A DNA stretch of 40,742 nucleotides from NCBI GenBank assembly GCA_030540695.1, contig JAUNVO010000003.1:1-40742 (forward strand), in the 5' to 3' direction. The position numbers and the translations under genes are program-made. Below the pieces are notes generated by a model. The model did no database searches and had not been told where the DNA came from. It worked only from the letters and a program-made list of their open reading frames with translations. Origin of the DNA: Micrococcaceae bacterium (GTDB lineage: Bacteria > Actinomycetota > Actinomycetes > Actinomycetales > Micrococcaceae). Numbering within the stretch: the first letter of the stretch is position 1; every line of letters starts with the position of its first letter. Positions 24,455 to 40,502 of the stretch are shown piece by piece.

Positions 24455-27400
24455 TCAAGCACCCAGCGCCAGGAAAGCACCGAGCTGAGAGAACGCTTCC
24501 GGGGTGCTTGGCAAAAAGTGTGTGAGGGCGGGCGATCGCACGATCACCGCACGCCATTGCCCGCGCGAGACCGCGACGTTGATCCTGTTGCGGTTCAATA
24601 GGAAGTCGATGCCTCGGGCGGCATCGTCCGCGGAGGAACAGGCCATGGAGACTATCACCACCGGGGCTTCCTGTCCCTGGAACTTGTCAACGGTCCCGAC
24701 CCTCACTTCTTCGAGCCCGGCGGCGTCGAGTTCGGTGCGCAACAGGTTGACTTGGGCGTTGTAAGCAGCAACCACCAAGACGTCTTCGGCGCACAGTGAC
24801 CGCGGTTCCTTGCCTTCGCCCTCGATCCAGGACAGGCCCATGTGGGCGTGAACCTGATTGATGACTTCGCGAGCTTCTTCCACCGAGGCGGTGGTGTTGC
24901 CCCGGTGGTCCACCAGGGCGGTGCTGACCCCGGCAGGCAGGCCGGACAGCGAACGTTTCGAGGCTGCCGCCGCTGAATGAAGTTTGGAGGAATAGCTCAG
25001 CGCGGAGACCTTTGCACAGAGTTGGGGGTGCATGCGCCACGAGTCGGCCAGGAAATAGCCCAGTTCCTCGGGCAGGGTGGGGTGTCCGGTGCTGAGCCAG
25101 CCAAGGGCCGACTCATCCACCGGCTGGGGATGGGATCCCTGGGTGACCTGCGGAAGCTGCTGCGGGTCACCGAGCAGCAACAGCCGGGTGGCGGCGCGGG
25201 AAACCGCCAACGTGTTGGCCAGCGAATACTGGCCCGCCTCATCGATGACCAGTAAATCCAGCGACCCTTCCGGCACCCTCCTGCCGGTCATCGTCCACGC
25301 GGTGCCCCCGATCAAGGCCCCGTCCGGGGAATCAAGCAATTCCTGTACCGCGTCGTCGGTGGTGCCGGACCAGGGGACCTGGGTCTTGTCCCCGCTCTTG
25401 AGCTTCTTTGCGACCTGTTCGGGGTGCACTCCGGCGTTGGTGATGGCCTTGGTCAGCACATTGTCGATGACCGCGTGTGACTGGGCCACCACTCCGATCT
25501 TCCACCCTTGCTTCACCAGTGCGGCAATGACGTGGGATGCCACGTAGGTCTTTCCGGTGCCCGGGGGCCCTTGGACAGCGAGGTACGAGTGGTCGAGGTC
25601 GGTCAGCGCCTCGACGATGGCGCCAACGACGTTGGGCTGGCCGTCGATCAAGGTGGGCCTCGGCGGCGCGGTGAGGCTCTTGAAACGCGGGGCCGACTTG
25701 CGCAGGATGTCGATGCCAGGATGCTTGGGCAGGGCGGGGAGGGCGCCGCCGACCATCCGGGCGAGCTCCGCCAGCGAATCGCGCAGGGACGTGGTGTTGA
25801 TGGGTTGGTCGGGGGTCAGCGCCAACGGCAGGGCGCCGAATGGTGCGACCTTTTTGCTGGACTTCTCGGCAATGACGAACCGTTCATCGTTTTCCTTCAC
25901 CACCGCGTTGAACAGGCCTGCGCGCTGGGCATTGCTGGGTTCCAGCTCCGGTGGCAGCGGTGCGCCGTACATGGCGAACCATGAGCTGCTGAGGCGGAAG
26001 TCCGAACCCTCGGCCATGGTGCCGGAAAGTTCGGTGAGACGGGTCTCGACCTGCGCCCGGGCAGAGGCCTTGTGCCAGTCCTCGATGATCCGGGCGTCAT
26101 CGACGAGGAAGACGTTGCGGGTGTCGGCCCAGGAATCGAAGGGAGCCTCGAGCCTGTCGAAGTGTTCCCACCAAAACTGCTTGGCTTCGCGGCGGTGGTA
26201 GCCGGTGGCCGCGGCGACCATGGCGATGGCCCGCTCATCGTCTTCCAGGATCCTGTCCTGTGGCAGGGATCCGAGGTATTCACGCAAGGCGATTTCCTCG
26301 GGGCTCGGCTCAACATCGTCAAGGCCGGGCAATTGCGCCTCGTCCACCCATGGTGTGTGGGGTTCGTGAGGGACCAGGGTTTGCAGCCAATCACGCAACC
26401 GCAAGGTCGAGAGGCAGTCATATTCGTTGTAGTCGCGGATGGATTCCAGGATCCGTTCCGCTTGCGCACGGTCGACGTCGAGCTGCTCGCGGTATTTGGC
26501 ATAGGCGACCACGGAGGATCCGGCGTCCAGCACCTCTCCGCCGCGCAGGTGCTCGCCCATGTAGAGCGGTTCGAGTTTCTTGATGGAGTAGGAGCGCTCG
26601 GAGATCAGCAGCGAGTGACGGACGGTGTCGTAGAGGTCGATGAGCAACCCGTCGCGCAACCACTGGTCAATGGTTTCCTCGCAGGCCACATGGCGTAGGG
26701 AAAGATTCCGCAGTGCGCTCTTCTCGTAGGGGGCGTAATGATAGATCTTCATCTTCGGGAAGATGGCCCGTCGAGCCTCGACGTAGGCGACGAAGTCGGT
26801 GAAGGCCTTGTGCTCTTCCGCCCGGGAATGTGCCCAGAACGGTTTGAATACCGGGTCAAGGGTGTCGATTTCGATGACTCCGAAGAGGTATTCCAGGCCC
26901 CAGGAACCATCGAATGGATCCTGCCACAACGGGTCTCCCTCGAAGTCAAAGAAGATGTCCCCGGCGTCGGGTTCCGGGAGCCGGGAAATGGTTTGACCCG
27001 CATTGACCTTGTAGGCAACCCCTCCAATGGTCCCGTCGGTGGCCGCAAGGCCGACTTGCATGCGGGCCTGTTCGGCAAGCTTGTGGTGCGGATCGCGCGC
27101 ATTGGTGTTGCTGGCAGCAAGCTCGTCAATGGTGGTGATTCCGTCTTCGATGAGCTTCTTGCGTTTGCCCGAGCTCATCGAAGCCACCAGCAGCAGATCC
27201 CTGTGCGCTGCCACCTGCTGCGCACAGTAGTCGCAGCGGCCGCAAGCACCGAGCCCCTCCTGGCCCCAGGCGACCGGGGCGCTTGCTGCGCGATGGGCGG
27301 CGGTGAGGGCCTTGAACCGGGTGCGGCGGTCCTGGAATACCGGCAGGAGTTCATGCATCTGGTGCACCGAGTGCTGGTTGTCGCCAAGAACCAATGTGGT

Positions 27401-27919
27401 CTTATTGGCCACGGGGATTCCTGCGGCGAGGAGCTGGTCGCCGTACGCAGCAAGCTGAAGCAGGGCGGTGACGCGTGCATGGCGGGCCAGTTTGGTGTCC
27501 CAGACCGCGTAGGCGCCGTCCTCCTCGCGGACCAGGAAGTCGGCGAAGCCCACGAATTCCCCATCAAAAAAGGTTGCTTGGAAGACCACGTCCGCCCCGT
27601 TGAGCAAAGCCTGGTGGGTTTCTTGGTGGGCGGCCACCAACGAGGCACGGTCACCACGGATTCCTGCGGCAAGCATCTTGACCCCGCGGCCGGTGGCCGG
27701 ATCGTAGGCGCCGAACTTCTCGATCAGCTGCTCAAGCACCTTGCGCTCGTGGGCGTCACCCAACGCAGCGGTTCGTTCGAGCATCTCGTCGGTCTTGAAG
27801 ACTTCCTTGGTGCTTCGCCCCAGCCGTTCGTCCAGCTTGCGCAGCGACGCAAATTCGCAGCTGGCAGCCAGCACGAGGTCCGAGGCGGAGTAGATCAAAT
27901 CCTGATCGAGGAAAAACAC
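24455..27919 (-). CDS. TM0106-family RecB-like nuclease / RNase H-like / SF1 (Dna2-Nam7-like) helicase fusion (1154 aa)
   Basis: GTG 27919 after AAGGAG. YSASDL..C, GFADFLV..WDTK, QLAAY, CGRCDYC, FFDFEGD, YNEYDC, QGPPGTGKT, DEAGQ, GDPQQL, TVDKFQGQE, NRINVAVSR. Confidence 0.88.
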   Translation of the reverse strand: MFFLDQDLIYSASDLVLAASCEFASLRKLDERLGRSTKEVFKTDEMLERTAALGDAHERKVLEQLIEKFGAYDPATGRGVKMLAAGIRGDRASLVAAHQETHQALLNGADVVFQATFFDGEFVGFADFLVREEDGAYAVWDTKLARHARVTALLQLAAYGDQLLAAGIPVANKTTLVLGDNQHSVHQMHELLPVFQDRRTRFKALTAAHRAASAPVAWGQEGLGACGRCDYCAQQVAAHRDLLLVASMSSGKRKKLIEDGITTIDELAASNTNARDPHHKLAEQARMQVGLAATDGTIGGVAYKVNAGQTISRLPEPDAGDIFFDFEGDPLWQDPFDGSWGLEYLFGVIEIDTLDPVFKPFWAHSRAEEHKAFTDFVAYVEARRAIFPKMKIYHYAPYEKSALRNLSLRHVACEETIDQWLRDGLLIDLYDTVRHSLLISERSYSIKKLEPLYMGEHLRGGEVLDAGSSVVAYAKYREQLDVDRAQAERILESIRDYNEYDCLSTLRLRDWLQTLVPHEPHTPWVDEAQLPGLDDVEPSPEEIALREYLGSLPQDRILEDDERAIAMVAAATGYHRREAKQFWWEHFDRLEAPFDSWADTRNVFLVDDARIIEDWHKASARAQVETRLTELSGTMAEGSDFRLSSSWFAMYGAPLPPELEPSNAQRAGLFNAVVKENDERFVIAEKSSKKVAPFGALPLALTPDQPINTTSLRDSLAELARMVGGALPALPKHPGIDILRKSAPRFKSLTAPPRPTLIDGQPNVVGAIVEALTDLDHSYLAVQGPPGTGKTYVASHVIAALVKQGWKIGVVAQSHAVIDNVLTKAITNAGVHPEQVAKKLKSGDKTQVPWSGTTDDAVQELLDSPDGALIGGTAWTMTGRRVPEGSLDLLVIDEAGQYSLANTLAVSRAATRLLLLGDPQQLPQVTQGSHPQPVDESALGWLSTGHPTLPEELGYFLADSWRMHPQLCAKVSALSYSSKLHSAAAASKRSLSGLPAGVSTALVDHRGNTTASVEEAREVINQVHAHMGLSWIEGEGKEPRSLCAEDVLVVAAYNAQVNLLRTELDAAGLEEVRVGTVDKFQGQEAPVVIVSMACSSADDAARGIDFLLNRNRINVAVSRGQWRAVIVRSPALTHFLPSTPEAFSQLGAFLALGA

Positions 27920-28017
27920 GGGACGGGTGCTCCTTTGGGTTTGGCTTAGCTTCGAAACTAGCACCCGTGAGCCACTGATTGCTGGTGCCGCAGTGCCGGG
28001 CCCCGTGATGGCAACGT

Positions 28018-28054
28018 CATGGGCCCCGGCACGTGGTGCGTGCCGGGGCCCATG
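28018..28054. terminator. Perfect 16-bp stem-loop downstream of the APC permease
   Basis: CATGGGCCCCGGCACG-TGGTG-CGTGCCGGGGCCCATG, 13 bp past the stop at 28068. Confidence 0.75.
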
Positions 28055-28067
28055 GTGCGGTGTGCCG

Positions 28068-29594
28068 CTAGTTGCCGACCCTGGCCGCGCGCAGCCTTTC
28101 GGCGACTTCGATGGCGTCGGCGGTGGGTGCCGTCGACTTCTTGTCCGGCTGGGCGACAAAGAGGTAAAGCGCCCCGGAGCCGGCCACGACGGCCAGGCCG
28201 ATCAACACGATCCAATCGGCAACGAAGTCGCCGGTGTCTCCCGGCTTGGCCAGCAGCACCATGGCGAACAGGCCGTAGGCCAGGGCCAGGATGTTCACGA
28301 TGAAGCCGGCTGAACCCAGGCTGAAGGGTCCGGCGGGCTTCCAGCCCTTGAGCCGCTGCCGCAGTGCGGCAAGGACGACGGCCTGGAACGAGACGTAGAT
28401 GCCCAGGATGGCAAAGCTGGTCACCTGGGTGAGCAGCGACTCGGAACCGAAGTAGATCATGATGCAAATCAGCAGGGGAATGGAGCATGCCACGATCAGG
28501 GCGTTCGTCGGGACCTTGGTGCTCGGGGAGACCTTGGAAAGCCACCGGTGTCCGGGGACCATCCCGTCGCGGGCGAAGGAGTACATCAGGCGCGAGGCGG
28601 CAGCTTGAAGCGAGAGCACGCAGGAGAGGAAGGCCGTCAAGGCGATCACCAGAAAAATCTTCGCGCCCAGAGGGCCCAAGGTGGATTCGAGTATCGCGGG
28701 GATGGGGTCTGCGTCATCCCCGTTGACGATTGATTGCAGGTCCGGGGCCGCCAAGACGTATCCGCCGAAGGATAGCAGGGCCGAGACGCCGCCGACCAGG
28801 ATGGTCATCATCATGGCCGTGGGAATGCGGCGTGCAGGATTGCTGACTTCCTCTGCCACGTCTCCGCAAGCCTCGAAGCCGTAGAAGAGGAACAATCCGG
28901 CCAAGGCCGCACCCATGAAGGCCGCCGCGTAGTTGCCGTCGCCCTCGACGCCCATGGAGTCAAGGAAGATGCTGAAGGGCTGCTTGCGGGCAAAGACCAA
29001 CAGGTAAAGCCCCACGGCGATCACGCCAATGAGCTCGGCGGCAAGTCCGATGCGGGCCACCCTGGCCAAGGTCTTGGTGCCGGTGAAGTTCAGCACCAGC
29101 GCCACCAACAGCAGGGCGATGGAGAAGATGAAGGTGGTGCCGCGGGTAAGTTCAACCCCGAAGGTGCTGGCCACGAAGCCGGATCCGAATTGTGCCACGG
29201 CGGTGATGGTGACGACCATGGCCCAGATGTAGATCCAAGCTGCCATCCATGCATAGCGGCGTCCCCAAAGGCGTCTTGTCCAAGGATAGATGCCGCCGTG
29301 GATCGGATATTGGGAAACGACCTCGCCAAAAACCAGGGAGACAAGGAACTGTCCTCCGGCCACGATCAGGATCCAGAAGATCGAGGGCGGGCCGCCGGTT
29401 GACAGCGCGATGGCGAAAAGCGAATACACCCCGACCAAGGGGGAAAGGTAGGTGAAGCCGAGGGCAAAGTTTGCCCACAGGGACATGGAGCGCTCAAAGG
29501 ATTGCTCGTAGCCCAGGACGGCGAGGTGATTGCCGTCTTCGATGTTTTGGTTGCTCATGGCGTGTCGGACCTTCATTGGCTGCAAGTGGGACAT
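28068..29594 (-). CDS. APC-family amino acid/polyamine permease
   Basis: LGYEQSFERSMSLWANFALGFTYLSP, YPIHGGIYPW, FYGFEACGDVAEE, RLMYSFARDG; about 12 TM segments. Confidence 0.9.
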   Translation of the reverse strand: MSHLQPMKVRHAMSNQNIEDGNHLAVLGYEQSFERSMSLWANFALGFTYLSPLVGVYSLFAIALSTGGPPSIFWILIVAGGQFLVSLVFGEVVSQYPIHGGIYPWTRRLWGRRYAWMAAWIYIWAMVVTITAVAQFGSGFVASTFGVELTRGTTFIFSIALLLVALVLNFTGTKTLARVARIGLAAELIGVIAVGLYLLVFARKQPFSIFLDSMGVEGDGNYAAAFMGAALAGLFLFYGFEACGDVAEEVSNPARRIPTAMMMTILVGGVSALLSFGGYVLAAPDLQSIVNGDDADPIPAILESTLGPLGAKIFLVIALTAFLSCVLSLQAAASRLMYSFARDGMVPGHRWLSKVSPSTKVPTNALIVACSIPLLICIMIYFGSESLLTQVTSFAILGIYVSFQAVVLAALRQRLKGWKPAGPFSLGSAGFIVNILALAYGLFAMVLLAKPGDTGDFVADWIVLIGLAVVAGSGALYLFVAQPDKKSTAPTADAIEVAERLRAARVGN

Positions 29595-38535: not shown

Positions 38536-40281
38536 ATGGGAGTCCACCGCTGGATGGGATCCGGACAGGAACTCGCCGTCCACCTCCTGCAACCGCGGCG
38601 GCTGCATTCGGTTGTGGTGACCCGCAGCGCGCGAGATGACGCGGCGGGGTTCGACGCCGAGGCGATCTACGAGGAAATCAAGGACTGGGCCGAGGTCATT
38701 GTCGTTCCCACCGGCCGGATCACCTACGGACTGCGCGACAGCCTGCCTTCCGGGTGGGAGGTCTTCGGAACCGCGGCAAGGGTCTATCCCACGGGGTCCG
38801 GGCCACACGGGATTCCTCCGGGAAGGCCGCACGTGGTGCGTGCCGGTGATTCCATTGACCGGCTCAGCACCGAACTGATCGATGAGGTGCTTTTCCTTCC
38901 CGATCCACGGACCTTGGTGGCCTCCACGTCCCCGCGACCCGGGCCCGGGGCCCGGGCGGCGGACCCGGTACGCGCCGTGGGCGCACCGGGAACGCTGTCG
39001 TTGGGTACCGGAAGCCATTCCATGCTGGTCACCGGTGTGGTGACGGGTTTCAAGGACCAGGGGTTCACCGCGCTGATTGCCCTGGACAACGGGGCAACCA
39101 GCGAGATCCATAGCGATGACATCTACTCCCGGGTCCCGGTGGGATGGATCCTGGACACCGGAACCCGGGTGGCAGGGGTGCACGAGCCCGGTGCCAAGGG
39201 GCTGTCCATCGGAGAATCGCTGCTGCACCCACGCCTGTTGCAACACTATTCATGGGGCCAGATCATTCCCTGCCTGGTCGTTGAGGCGGGCAATGAATCA
39301 GCGGTGCTGGTTCCGGTGCCGGGAGAGAGCATCTCGGTGAGCCGGGCCGATGTCTCGTCCAACGAACTTGACGACGTCGACTCCTTGCTTGCCCCGGGGC
39401 AAGTCGTTGCCGCCCGCCTGGTCAATGCCGCCGGCCTTCGCAAGCTCGTGCTGGTGGACGTGGATGACGATGAACCCGTCGCTGAAGCACCGCCCCTTTT
39501 CCGTGGCGGGGGCCCATGGCTGGTGATCGACCGTGACCACGTCCCGGAACCAGGGGATCCACCGAGCACCAAAACCCCCGCGGGGCTGCCGGTGCTCGCC
39601 ACGCCGGAAAAACAGCGTGAGGCCCTGCGCAGTGCGTTGTTGCAGATCGATGCGCTCAAGTCCGAGGCCAAGGCCCTGCGCCAGGCGCAATCGGGAACCA
39701 GAGCCGACGAGCTGGCGTCGGTGATGGAGCAGAAGGACCGCTACCGTGCCGAAAACGCCAAGCTGCGAACCTTGTTGCGCACCAAGTCCGAGGCCCTGAA
39801 CCAGAACCAGCGCATCGCGCGCAAAAAAGCCCGGACGACCGAGACCACGGCATCACCGGAGGCGCGGGACAAGTTCACGCGCGCCGAGGAGGCGCTGCGC
39901 CACGAACTCTATCTGGAATGGGTCCAGCGAATCCCGGCAAACGAGAAATCCTTGTATCCCTGGAACCCCGGTTTTGTCGTGGGCCCGAAGTTTGCCGCTT
40001 CCTTCTACTCTCATGGTCCGGCGCTGCGCGGTAAAACATTGAAGGCACTGATTCAGCTGTTGACGGGCCGGGCGGAGAGGATGGCCGCGCGTGAGGTGCA
40101 TCCCAAGCGCACCGGCCCGGGTGGGGAGGACCCGCAATCGATCCGGGAGGACGGTGCCACATGTTGGAGGATGAGCGTGGAAAGCGGGGTGGCGGGTGCC
40201 CGCCGGGTGCACTACTGGAAACTGCCAGACGGCCGGTTCGAACTTCACGAGCTCGTATCCCACGACACCTTTGAGCTGTGA
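38536..40281 (+). CDS. Uncharacterised multidomain protein (~581 aa): N-terminal alpha/beta domain, two S1/OB-like repeats, coiled coil, RelE-like C-terminus
   Basis: Long ORF; RBS AGGGAGGG before ATG 38536. The CDS is well supported; the domain calls are by eye only. Confidence 0.7.
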   Translation: MGVHRWMGSGQELAVHLLQPRRLHSVVVTRSARDDAAGFDAEAIYEEIKDWAEVIVVPTGRITYGLRDSLPSGWEVFGTAARVYPTGSGPHGIPPGRPHVVRAGDSIDRLSTELIDEVLFLPDPRTLVASTSPRPGPGARAADPVRAVGAPGTLSLGTGSHSMLVTGVVTGFKDQGFTALIALDNGATSEIHSDDIYSRVPVGWILDTGTRVAGVHEPGAKGLSIGESLLHPRLLQHYSWGQIIPCLVVEAGNESAVLVPVPGESISVSRADVSSNELDDVDSLLAPGQVVAARLVNAAGLRKLVLVDVDDDEPVAEAPPLFRGGGPWLVIDRDHVPEPGDPPSTKTPAGLPVLATPEKQREALRSALLQIDALKSEAKALRQAQSGTRADELASVMEQKDRYRAENAKLRTLLRTKSEALNQNQRIARKKARTTETTASPEARDKFTRAEEALRHELYLEWVQRIPANEKSLYPWNPGFVVGPKFAASFYSHGPALRGKTLKALIQLLTGRAERMAAREVHPKRTGPGGEDPQSIREDGATCWRMSVESGVAGARRVHYWKLPDGRFELHELVSHDTFEL

Positions 40282-40502
40282 ACCACGTGGTTTCTCGTTC
40301 CCGGCCGGAACATGGCCTGGGGAGGCACCGGGTCAACGTGCGGTGGCAACCCTTCGGTCACCGAACCATGGAGGAAGTGCCAGGCAAGCGCCGAGCGGAT
40401 CGCCCGCTCATCGACGCCATAGGTGCGGGATATTTCCGCAAGCGACCACCCCGCGGTCCGCAATTCCATAAGTGTGGGATATGCCGGGGTCTTGTTGGCC
40501 AT
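40245..40502 (-). CDS. Small helix-turn-helix protein (85 aa)
   Basis: Strong RBS AGGAGGAGG; LRTAGWSLAEISRTYGVDERAIRSAL HTH pattern. Confidence 0.6.
   Translation of the reverse strand: MANKTPAYPTLMELRTAGWSLAEISRTYGVDERAIRSALAWHFLHGSVTEGLPPHVDPVPPQAMFRPGTRNHVVHSSKVSWDTSS

What the first reader, a model, noticed from the sequence alone, without database searches (positions are those of the whole stretch)
38536..40281. Unnamed protein with S1-like repeats, coiled coil and RelE-like end: candidate single-gene defence or translation toxin
Seen: two OB/S1-like segments (VTGVVTGFKDQGFTALIALDNGATSEIHSDDI; GQIIPCLVVEAGNESAVL..VSRADVS..LLAPGQVVAARLV), a coiled coil (about 39610-39840), and a C-terminal HPKRTG..REDGATCWRMSV..ARRVHYWKLPDGRFELHELVSHD. 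The last pattern (Arg-bearing beta-meander ending in His-Asp) resembles RelE/ParE-fold RNases. Inference: a self-inhibited sensor-effector in which RNA-binding or ribosomal-S1-mimic domains gate a ribosome-associated RNase, for example in abortive infection.
Basis: inference. Interest (0 to 1): 0.72.

Follow-up and report, generated by a model that had tools for sequence, protein, structure and literature searches.

The report
HEC-07-like antiphage RNase with S1 domains
This unnamed gene encodes a protein predicted to join a cysteine-free thioredoxin-like domain, two ribosomal-protein-S1-like domains, a coiled coil and a RelE-type RNA-cutting domain; it is likely a new actinobacterial variant of the one-gene antiphage system HEC-07 that would shut down translation in an infected cell.

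Summary
The 581-aa ORF is real, under purifying selection, and has no Pfam, NCBIfam or PADLOC name. It belongs to a large, patchy Actinomycetota family (1,809 clusters at 50% identity) that also occurs on 12 large plasmids. Predicted structures confirm two S1/OB folds, a coiled coil and a C-terminal RelE fold (YafQ Z 9.5) with near-invariant His522, Arg545 and His576. That domain is homologous to the thioredoxin-like domain of HEC-07, a single-gene thioredoxin-like/RelE system reported to protect E. coli from phage. The query differs from HEC-07: it lacks the N-terminal AdoMetDC-like domain, adds an S1 pair, and uses another RelE subfamily. That subfamily also ends a BREX-embedded ATPase partner and an Hhe/Mokosh-like helicase. 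Thioredoxin-like plus RelE is the core; some relatives lack the S1 pair. Against: this locus is housekeeping, the position is stable within genera, and defence-neighbour enrichment was not significant (10 of 47 vs 2 of 20). Toxicity, self-inhibition, ribosome dependence and phage protection are untested. Verdict: new variant of a known kind.

The parts
38536..40281 (+). Whole gene, 581 aa: thioredoxin-like - S1 - S1 - coiled coil - RelE-fold RNase
   Evidence: dN/dS versus nearest named relative 0.06/0.45
38536..38904 (+). Thioredoxin-fold domain without CxxC (aa 1-123), homologous to the HEC-07 thioredoxin-like domain; likely sensor
   Evidence: VIA Z about 10 to thioredoxins; CxxC in 0 of 169; hhalign 96.9% to HEC-07-like L205
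38905..39021 (+). Low-confidence Pro/Gly-rich linker (aa 124-162)
   Evidence: pLDDT <50 at aa 130-159
39022..39219 (+). S1/OB domain a (aa 163-228); weakly closest to RpsA domains 3-4; conserved Arg at 178
39238..39522 (+). S1/OB domain b plus acidic DVDDDE and GGxPWL motif (aa 235-329); acidic; closest to RpsA domain 1
   Evidence: VIA Z 10.4; family median net charge -7; 15.8 bits to RpsA D1 versus 4.3 and 7.2 to later domains
39604..39840 (+). Coiled-coil helix (aa 357-435), least conserved folded part
   Evidence: mean pair identity 0.21
39862..39963 (+). Helical cap ahead of the RNase (aa 443-476; F447, W462), shared with the same RNase subfamily in other architectures
39964..40281 (+). 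RelE/YafQ-fold RNase (aa 477-581); H522 (codon at 40099), R545 (40168), H576 (40261)
   Evidence: nine His/Arg/acid positions jointly kept in 151 of 169

Best explanation
The gene is likely a one-gene antiphage (or anti-mobile-element) sensor-effector of the HEC-07 type: a predicted cysteine-free thioredoxin-like domain would sense infection and, through the coiled coil, would release a C-terminal RelE/YafQ-fold RNase that likely cuts mRNA and stalls translation. Shown by calls: the domain order, conserved catalytic-type residues, homology of the first domain to HEC-07, no shared partner gene, patchy and plasmid-borne spread. Inferred: RNase activity (H576 as general acid and H522 as base, by register with YafQ H87/H50); restraint in cis, since no antitoxin travels with the gene; the phage trigger; growth arrest. 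The S1 pair is an optional add-on that would either dock the protein on the ribosome or RNA, or act as bait for phage proteins that target ribosomal S1.
For: (1) HEC-07 profile PDLC04161 hits the thioredoxin-like domain of family members: E 6e-13 and 5.5e-12, 8e-16. The family profile reciprocally hits HEC-07-like proteins at iE 6e-20 and 1.5e-18; hhalign gives 96.9% and 94.9%. HEC-07 is described as AdoMetDC-like + thioredoxin lacking CxxC + RelE with a conserved late His, and is among seven of nine candidates that reduced plaquing (10.1101/2024.01.29.577857, sections 6 and 9). HEC-07-like loci appear from sequence to keep a coiled-coil-like stretch between the two domains. (2) The same RNase subfamily ends a 351-aa protein lying behind an NsnB/HEC-03B-like ATPase between PglX and PglZ of a BREX locus (hhalign 98.6%), and ends about 1,700-aa helicase-nucleases that hit PDC-S37/Mokosh/Hhe models. 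(3) The RNase is the best conserved domain (pair identity 0.45 versus 0.35); its model range 36-139 maps to YafQ 3-91, which puts H576 on H87 if the end is ungapped. (4) Spread: 51 of 300 Micrococcaceae, 12 of 18 in the own genus; 4 of 400 phylum matches, only 2 of them this family; 12 plasmids of 149 kb-1 Mb; clean absence with no replacement in 5 of the 6 congeners lacking it that were examined. (5) Some relatives sit beside Wadjet, DISARM/McrBC, Azaca and Uzume genes, and 4 of 47 contexts hold ARG + ARPP + Nudix-regulator clusters predicted to be antiviral (0 of 20 controls).
Against: The query itself gives no PADLOC hit at E<=1 and only E 0.0026 per genome with the HEC-07 model, at a threshold where 8 of 14 control genomes also ring, so the link runs through relatives. 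Its RNase does not align with HEC-07-type RelE (hhalign 0.1%) and the Menshen NsnC model misses it. The window locus is housekeeping (M50B peptidase upstream, epimerase downstream) with flat GC. The position is stable across Paeniglutamicibacter, Promicromonospora and Nocardioides, and 17 of 18 genomes of one genus carry it. Defence adjacency under a pre-set rule: 10 of 47 versus 2 of 20, p 0.49; 8 of 41 without hand-split contexts, p 0.47; with ARG clusters added 12 of 47, p 0.20. Several of the 10 are generic matches (Fic, kinase, DEDDh, subtilase). No domain shows elevated dN/dS. The RNase helices are not basic family-wide (median -1; query +5), unlike the 16S-contacting patches of YafQ.
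Confidence: 0.6

Rival explanations
1. A domesticated stress or translation quality-control RNase: the S1 domains and coiled coil place it on stalled or hibernating ribosomes, where it trims mRNA, with no role against phage.
For: Single copy in most carriers, long-term synteny among housekeeping genes, purifying selection in all domains, S1b most like RpsA domain 1, no significant defence enrichment.
Against: Found in only 51 of 300 family genomes and about 2 of 400 phylum genomes; repeatedly lost without trace; plasmid-borne; both core domains have defence-system homologues.
Confidence: 0.2
2. A RegB-plus-S1 enzyme in one chain: the S1 pair presents a specific RNA motif to the RelE-fold domain, giving a sequence-selective, non-lethal mRNase that needs no inhibitor.
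For: T4 RegB shares structure with RelE/YoeB and its smallest activator is an S1 bi-module (PMC3014915, passages and section 10). The query has exactly two S1 domains, and its family lacks YafQ-type basic helices.
Against: RegB is a poor structural match (Z 3.1 versus 9.5 for YafQ). The S1 pair is dispensable, acidic, and lacks the aromatic FGAF residues seen in RpsA D3/D4.
Confidence: 0.1
3. A selfish or plasmid-competition toxin (addiction or exclusion of rival elements) that was later stranded on chromosomes.
For: 12 large plasmids carry it, several beside HipA, Fic or SocA-type toxin-antitoxin genes. S1-less forms occur on 6 of the 8 plasmid loci examined.
Against: No cognate antitoxin gene is shared across contexts; chromosomal copies are easily lost, which an addiction module would resist.
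Confidence: 0.1

Closest known systems
HEC-07 (Payne et al. 2024, bioRxiv 10.1101/2024.01.29.577857; PADLOC PDLC04159/PDLC04161)
   Same: Single gene; thioredoxin-like domain lacking CxxC (homologous by profile); C-terminal RelE-fold domain with a conserved His near the end; similar length.
   Different: No N-terminal AdoMetDC-like domain; two S1 domains inserted; the RelE domain is another subfamily (HPxR...R...ARRLHYW...HD against GHxGxHL) with no profile match; not shown to protect.
Menshen NsnC PB-BECR1 RNase (PMC12065111)
   Same: YafQ-like fold with an H-R-H set in the place of YafQ's H-D-H; a relative of the query's RNase lies behind an NsnB-like ATPase.
   Different: No NsnA/NsnB partner and no inactive PIN domain here; the PADLOC NsnC model does not hit; the paper's alignment could not be read, so identity with PB-BECR1 is inferred.
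YafQ (DinJ-YafQ type II toxin-antitoxin; PDB 4q2u; PMC4652777)
   Same: Best structural match; H576 in register with H87 and H522 within a few residues of H50.
   Different: 581-aa fusion, no DinJ-like gene, extra helical cap, basic ribosome-binding patches not conserved.
Cami1 (PDB 8phb)
   Same: Sensor-fused C-terminal RelE domain (Z 5.5).
   Different: Cami1 is a CARF protein of type III CRISPR systems (recalled); neither feature is seen here.
T4 RegB with ribosomal protein S1 (PMC3014915)
   Same: RelE-like nuclease working with an S1 bi-module.
   Different: Two separate proteins, phage-encoded nuclease, weak structural match (Z 3.1).

Membership tests
RelE/ParE superfamily (YafQ-like) | RelE fold | tested here: met
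   VIA Z 9.5, rmsd 2.3, 87 aligned to YafQ, on a model with pLDDT 94
RelE/ParE superfamily (YafQ-like) | Catalytic His/Arg at YafQ-equivalent places | tested here: met
   H522 98%, R545 100%, H576 99% of 169; register inferred from aligned ranges, not a residue-level superposition
RelE/ParE superfamily (YafQ-like) | Basic surface patches for 16S rRNA binding | tested here: inconclusive
   Helix 1-2 net charge +5 in the query, family median -1
RelE/ParE superfamily (YafQ-like) | Ribosome-dependent mRNA cleavage | not testable with these tools
   needs biochemistry
Type II toxin-antitoxin (DinJ-YafQ, RelBE) | Adjacent co-inherited antitoxin gene | tested here: not met
   No shared neighbour across contexts; the small convergent ORF is also in genomes lacking the gene
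HEC-07 | Thioredoxin-like domain lacking CxxC, homologous to HEC-07's | tested here: met
   (via family profile; direct query hit weak)
HEC-07 | N-terminal AdoMetDC-like domain | tested here: not met
   The protein starts with the thioredoxin fold; matches begin at HEC-07 profile position about 165-180
HEC-07 | C-terminal RelE-fold domain with late conserved His | tested here: met
HEC-07 | RelE domain of the HEC-07 sequence family | tested here: not met
   No profile hit; hhalign 0.1% against 7 HEC-07-model loci
HEC-07 | Phage protection | not testable with these tools
   plaque assay needed
Menshen (NsnABC) | NsnA-NsnB-NsnC operon; inactive PIN plus effector | tested here: not met
   No such neighbours; NsnC model gives no hit in 5 of 5 genomes
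Redox-active thioredoxin | CxxC active site | tested here: not met
   0 of 169; no Cys in the query domain

The most novel reading that the evidence does not exclude
The S1 pair is an integrated decoy of host ribosomal protein S1: phage proteins that bind or modify S1 (ModB-type ADP-ribosyltransferases, RIII-like binders) would hit the decoy and trip the fused RNase, a guard/decoy immune receptor for the translation machinery. This fits S1b resembling RpsA domain 1, the loss of RNA-binding aromatics, and the gene's recurrence beside ARG/ARPP clusters predicted to counter viral ADP-ribosylation (4 of 47 contexts versus 0 of 20, p 0.31). Against: no well-conserved Arg at the ModB-type loop position, and no such cluster at this locus.
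Probability: 0.12. Interest if true: 0.82.

Novelty: new variant of a known kind. Interest (0 to 1): 0.52.

Why it matters
If right, a large unannotated Actinomycetota family (1,809 clusters) joins the antiphage repertoire although defence-island screens and current HMMs miss it. It shows the HEC-07 thioredoxin-like module swapping RNase effectors and gaining S1 domains. HEC-07's trigger is not given in the sections read; natural forms with and without S1, and with doubled thioredoxin-like domains, offer a ready series for finding what this module senses and whether ribosomal-protein mimics serve as immune decoys.

Tried and rejected
Sequence libraries: no significant Pfam, PADLOC or NCBIfam match for the query; none for 34 C-terminal domains in Pfam; PDB sequence searches gave only coiled-coil or chance hits; the Atlas gave only unnamed clusters and one S1 cluster. 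Complex prediction of the thioredoxin-like with the RNase domain: no answer, score 0.08, used neither way. No RNA holder was listed. No relative found in IMG/VR by pattern or in 50,697 phage records; the viral fold search had no E<=0.001. Short RNase-only hits (61) lie mostly on short contigs and look like fragments; a stand-alone form is neither shown nor excluded. The promoter/terminator scan was at chance level. The convergent small ORF was rejected as an antitoxin. Redox thioredoxin was rejected (no CxxC). One search used an irrelevant family and is not used. Earlier scan findings: nothing returned. Literature: searches found no paper describing the thioredoxin-S1-S1-RelE architecture; the library is open-access only. 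PMC12458937 (passages) and PMC7781912 (no term found) added nothing.

Full report
Observation. The ORF at 38536-40281 (+) encodes 581 aa and holds all quoted motifs. It has a Shine-Dalgarno-like AGGGAGG, homologues with the same start, and dN well below dS in every domain (0.06/0.45 overall and 0.03/0.65 in the RNase against the nearest named relative). Pfam, PADLOC and NCBIfam give no significant match. A profile of 17 homologues finds 1,809 clusters at 50% identity; the Atlas look-alike clusters are commonest in Actinomycetota.

Anatomy. AlphaFold2 gives confident domains without confident packing (pTM 0.39). Residues 1-123 match thioredoxins (Z about 10), with CxxC in 0 of 169 aligned proteins. 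Residues 163-312 are two S1/OB folds. Against the host's own RpsA, S1b scores best on domain 1 and S1a weakly on domains 3-4, and the FGAF aromatics of those RpsA domains are replaced; S1b is strongly acidic. Residues 357-435 form one long helix. Residues 442-581 folded alone (pLDDT 94) give a helical cap plus a RelE fold, best matching YafQ (Z 9.5) and an H. pylori toxin (4ls4, Z 9.1; its name HP0894 is recalled), with RegB far down (Z 3.1). H522, R525, R537, R545, R557, H559, E569, H576 and D577 are jointly kept in 151 of 169. The aligned ranges put H576 on YafQ H87, the proposed general acid, and H522 near H50 (PMC4652777, passages); this register is inferred from range ends.

Architectures. 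Of 237 stored proteins, 206 are Trx-S1-S1-RelE, 16 have a doubled Trx, 6 lack both S1 domains and 9 are partial. On an RNase tree of 54 dereplicated rows (labels of several rows set by hand; rows of unknown architecture dropped) the 12 S1-less rows need at least 3 changes, with weak deep support. So Trx plus RNase is the core and the S1 pair is optional.

Link to known defence. The HEC-07 profile hits the Trx domain of relatives (E 6e-13, 5.5e-12; 8e-16), and the family Trx profile hits HEC-07-like proteins (iE 6e-20; hhalign 96.9%). The query alone scores only E 0.0026 per genome, which is within control noise. Payne et al. (10.1101/2024.01.29.577857; passages and sections 6 and 9) describe HEC-07 as AdoMetDC-like, thioredoxin without CxxC, and RelE with His543, and report protection for all candidates except HEC-01 and HEC-09; no HEC-07 mutant is reported in those sections, and the supplements were closed. 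The RNases differ: no profile match between the two. The query's RNase subfamily instead recurs in a 351-aa protein behind an NsnB/HEC-03B-like ATPase inside a BREX locus and at the end of about 1,700-aa helicase-nucleases that hit PDC-S37, Mokosh and Hhe models. The Menshen paper (PMC12065111; passages and section 18) describes a YafQ-like PB-BECR1 effector with an H-R-H set, which fits H522/R545/H576, but the NsnC model does not hit and the supplement with the alignment was unreadable.

Distribution and context. Carriers: 51 of 300 Micrococcaceae, 12 of 18 in the own genus, 17 of 18 in another genus and none in many. The phylum sample gave 4 of 400, of which one is the BREX-embedded protein and one a doubtful E 7e-4 match. 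Twelve plasmids carry it; no phage does. Here it lies between an M50B peptidase and an epimerase, a position kept across the genus. In 5 of the 6 congeners lacking it that were examined, those genes adjoin with only a small ORF between them, and the label needs about 4 changes on a weakly supported tree. A rule set beforehand (PADLOC E<=1e-20, at least half the profile, about 5.5 kb) gave 10 of 47 contexts against 2 of 20 control windows (p 0.49). Six of the 47 were split by hand after seeing their content (8 of 41 without them), two were added because the ORF caller missed the gene, and several passes are generic. Clear cases are Wadjet, DISARM with McrBC, Azaca, Uzume and a DrmD/Tiamat-like cluster. 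Four contexts hold ARG, ARPP and a Nudix regulator, a cluster that Iyer et al. predict counters viral ADP-ribosylation (PMC9503650, passages and section 31); 0 of 20 controls do (p 0.31). Enrichment is therefore suggestive at most.

Mechanism. Most likely (0.6) a HEC-07-type single-chain sensor-effector: the Trx-like domain senses, the coiled coil relays or oligomerises, the RNase cuts mRNA and arrests growth. Restraint in cis is inferred only from the lack of an antitoxin. Ribosome dependence is open: the fold favours it, but the basic helix patches of YafQ are not conserved. Rivals are a domesticated translation quality-control RNase (0.2), a RegB-plus-S1 sequence-selective mRNase (0.1; PMC3014915, passages and section 10) and a plasmid-competition toxin (0.1). 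The boldest reading is an S1 decoy: T4 ModB modifies S1 domains on an Arg in the strand 3-4 loop (PMC10468400, passages), but the family has no well-conserved Arg there.

Verdict. Not a member of HEC-07 (first domain absent, different RNase family), Menshen or type II toxin-antitoxin, but it likely works like HEC-07. Searches found no description of this architecture in the open library. New variant of a known kind; interest 0.52.

Noticed in passing
window 40245-40502 (-): Small conserved ORF (PAYPTLMELR motif, HTH-like by eye) convergent on the gene and overlapping its 3' end by about 37 nt; present in carriers and non-carriers of the genus; no PADLOC hit.
   Followed up: partly
L148:2089-7239, L149:3120-8315, L151:2093-7216: About 1,700-aa helicase-nuclease ending in the same RelE subfamily, with a divergent neighbour giving weak ZorA hits; candidate defence locus.
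   Followed up: partly
L203:7179-18301 (G514:C37): BREX locus (PglXI, PglZ, BrxA) with an embedded NsnB/HEC-03B-like ATPase and a 351-aa RelE-ended partner that no PADLOC model names, next to a PDC-S06 gene.
   Followed up: partly
L012, L051, L055, L163; L014, L015: Gene recurs beside ARG/phosphatase, ARPP, Nudix regulator and vWA-like genes; TY-Chap2 lies just upstream in L015 and within 3 kb in L014.
   Followed up: partly
L012 and L015 (one Zafaria contig): Two divergent copies about 12 kb apart, one beside Uzume and the ARG cluster, one at the Paeniglutamicibacter-like position.
   Followed up: no
L113, L114 (large plasmids): Homologues sit in gene-dense, phage-like stretches with RNA ligase, Thg1, LigA, HNH and WhiA genes.
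   Followed up: no
window 24455-28159 (-): 1,234-aa nuclease/SF1 helicase; a relative lies directly upstream of the gene in L056 and L071, ahead of Wadjet genes.
   Followed up: no
L205-L213: HEC-07-model matches in 9 of 201 Actinomycetota genomes, some in unusual lengths or with divergent RelE ends.
   Followed up: partly
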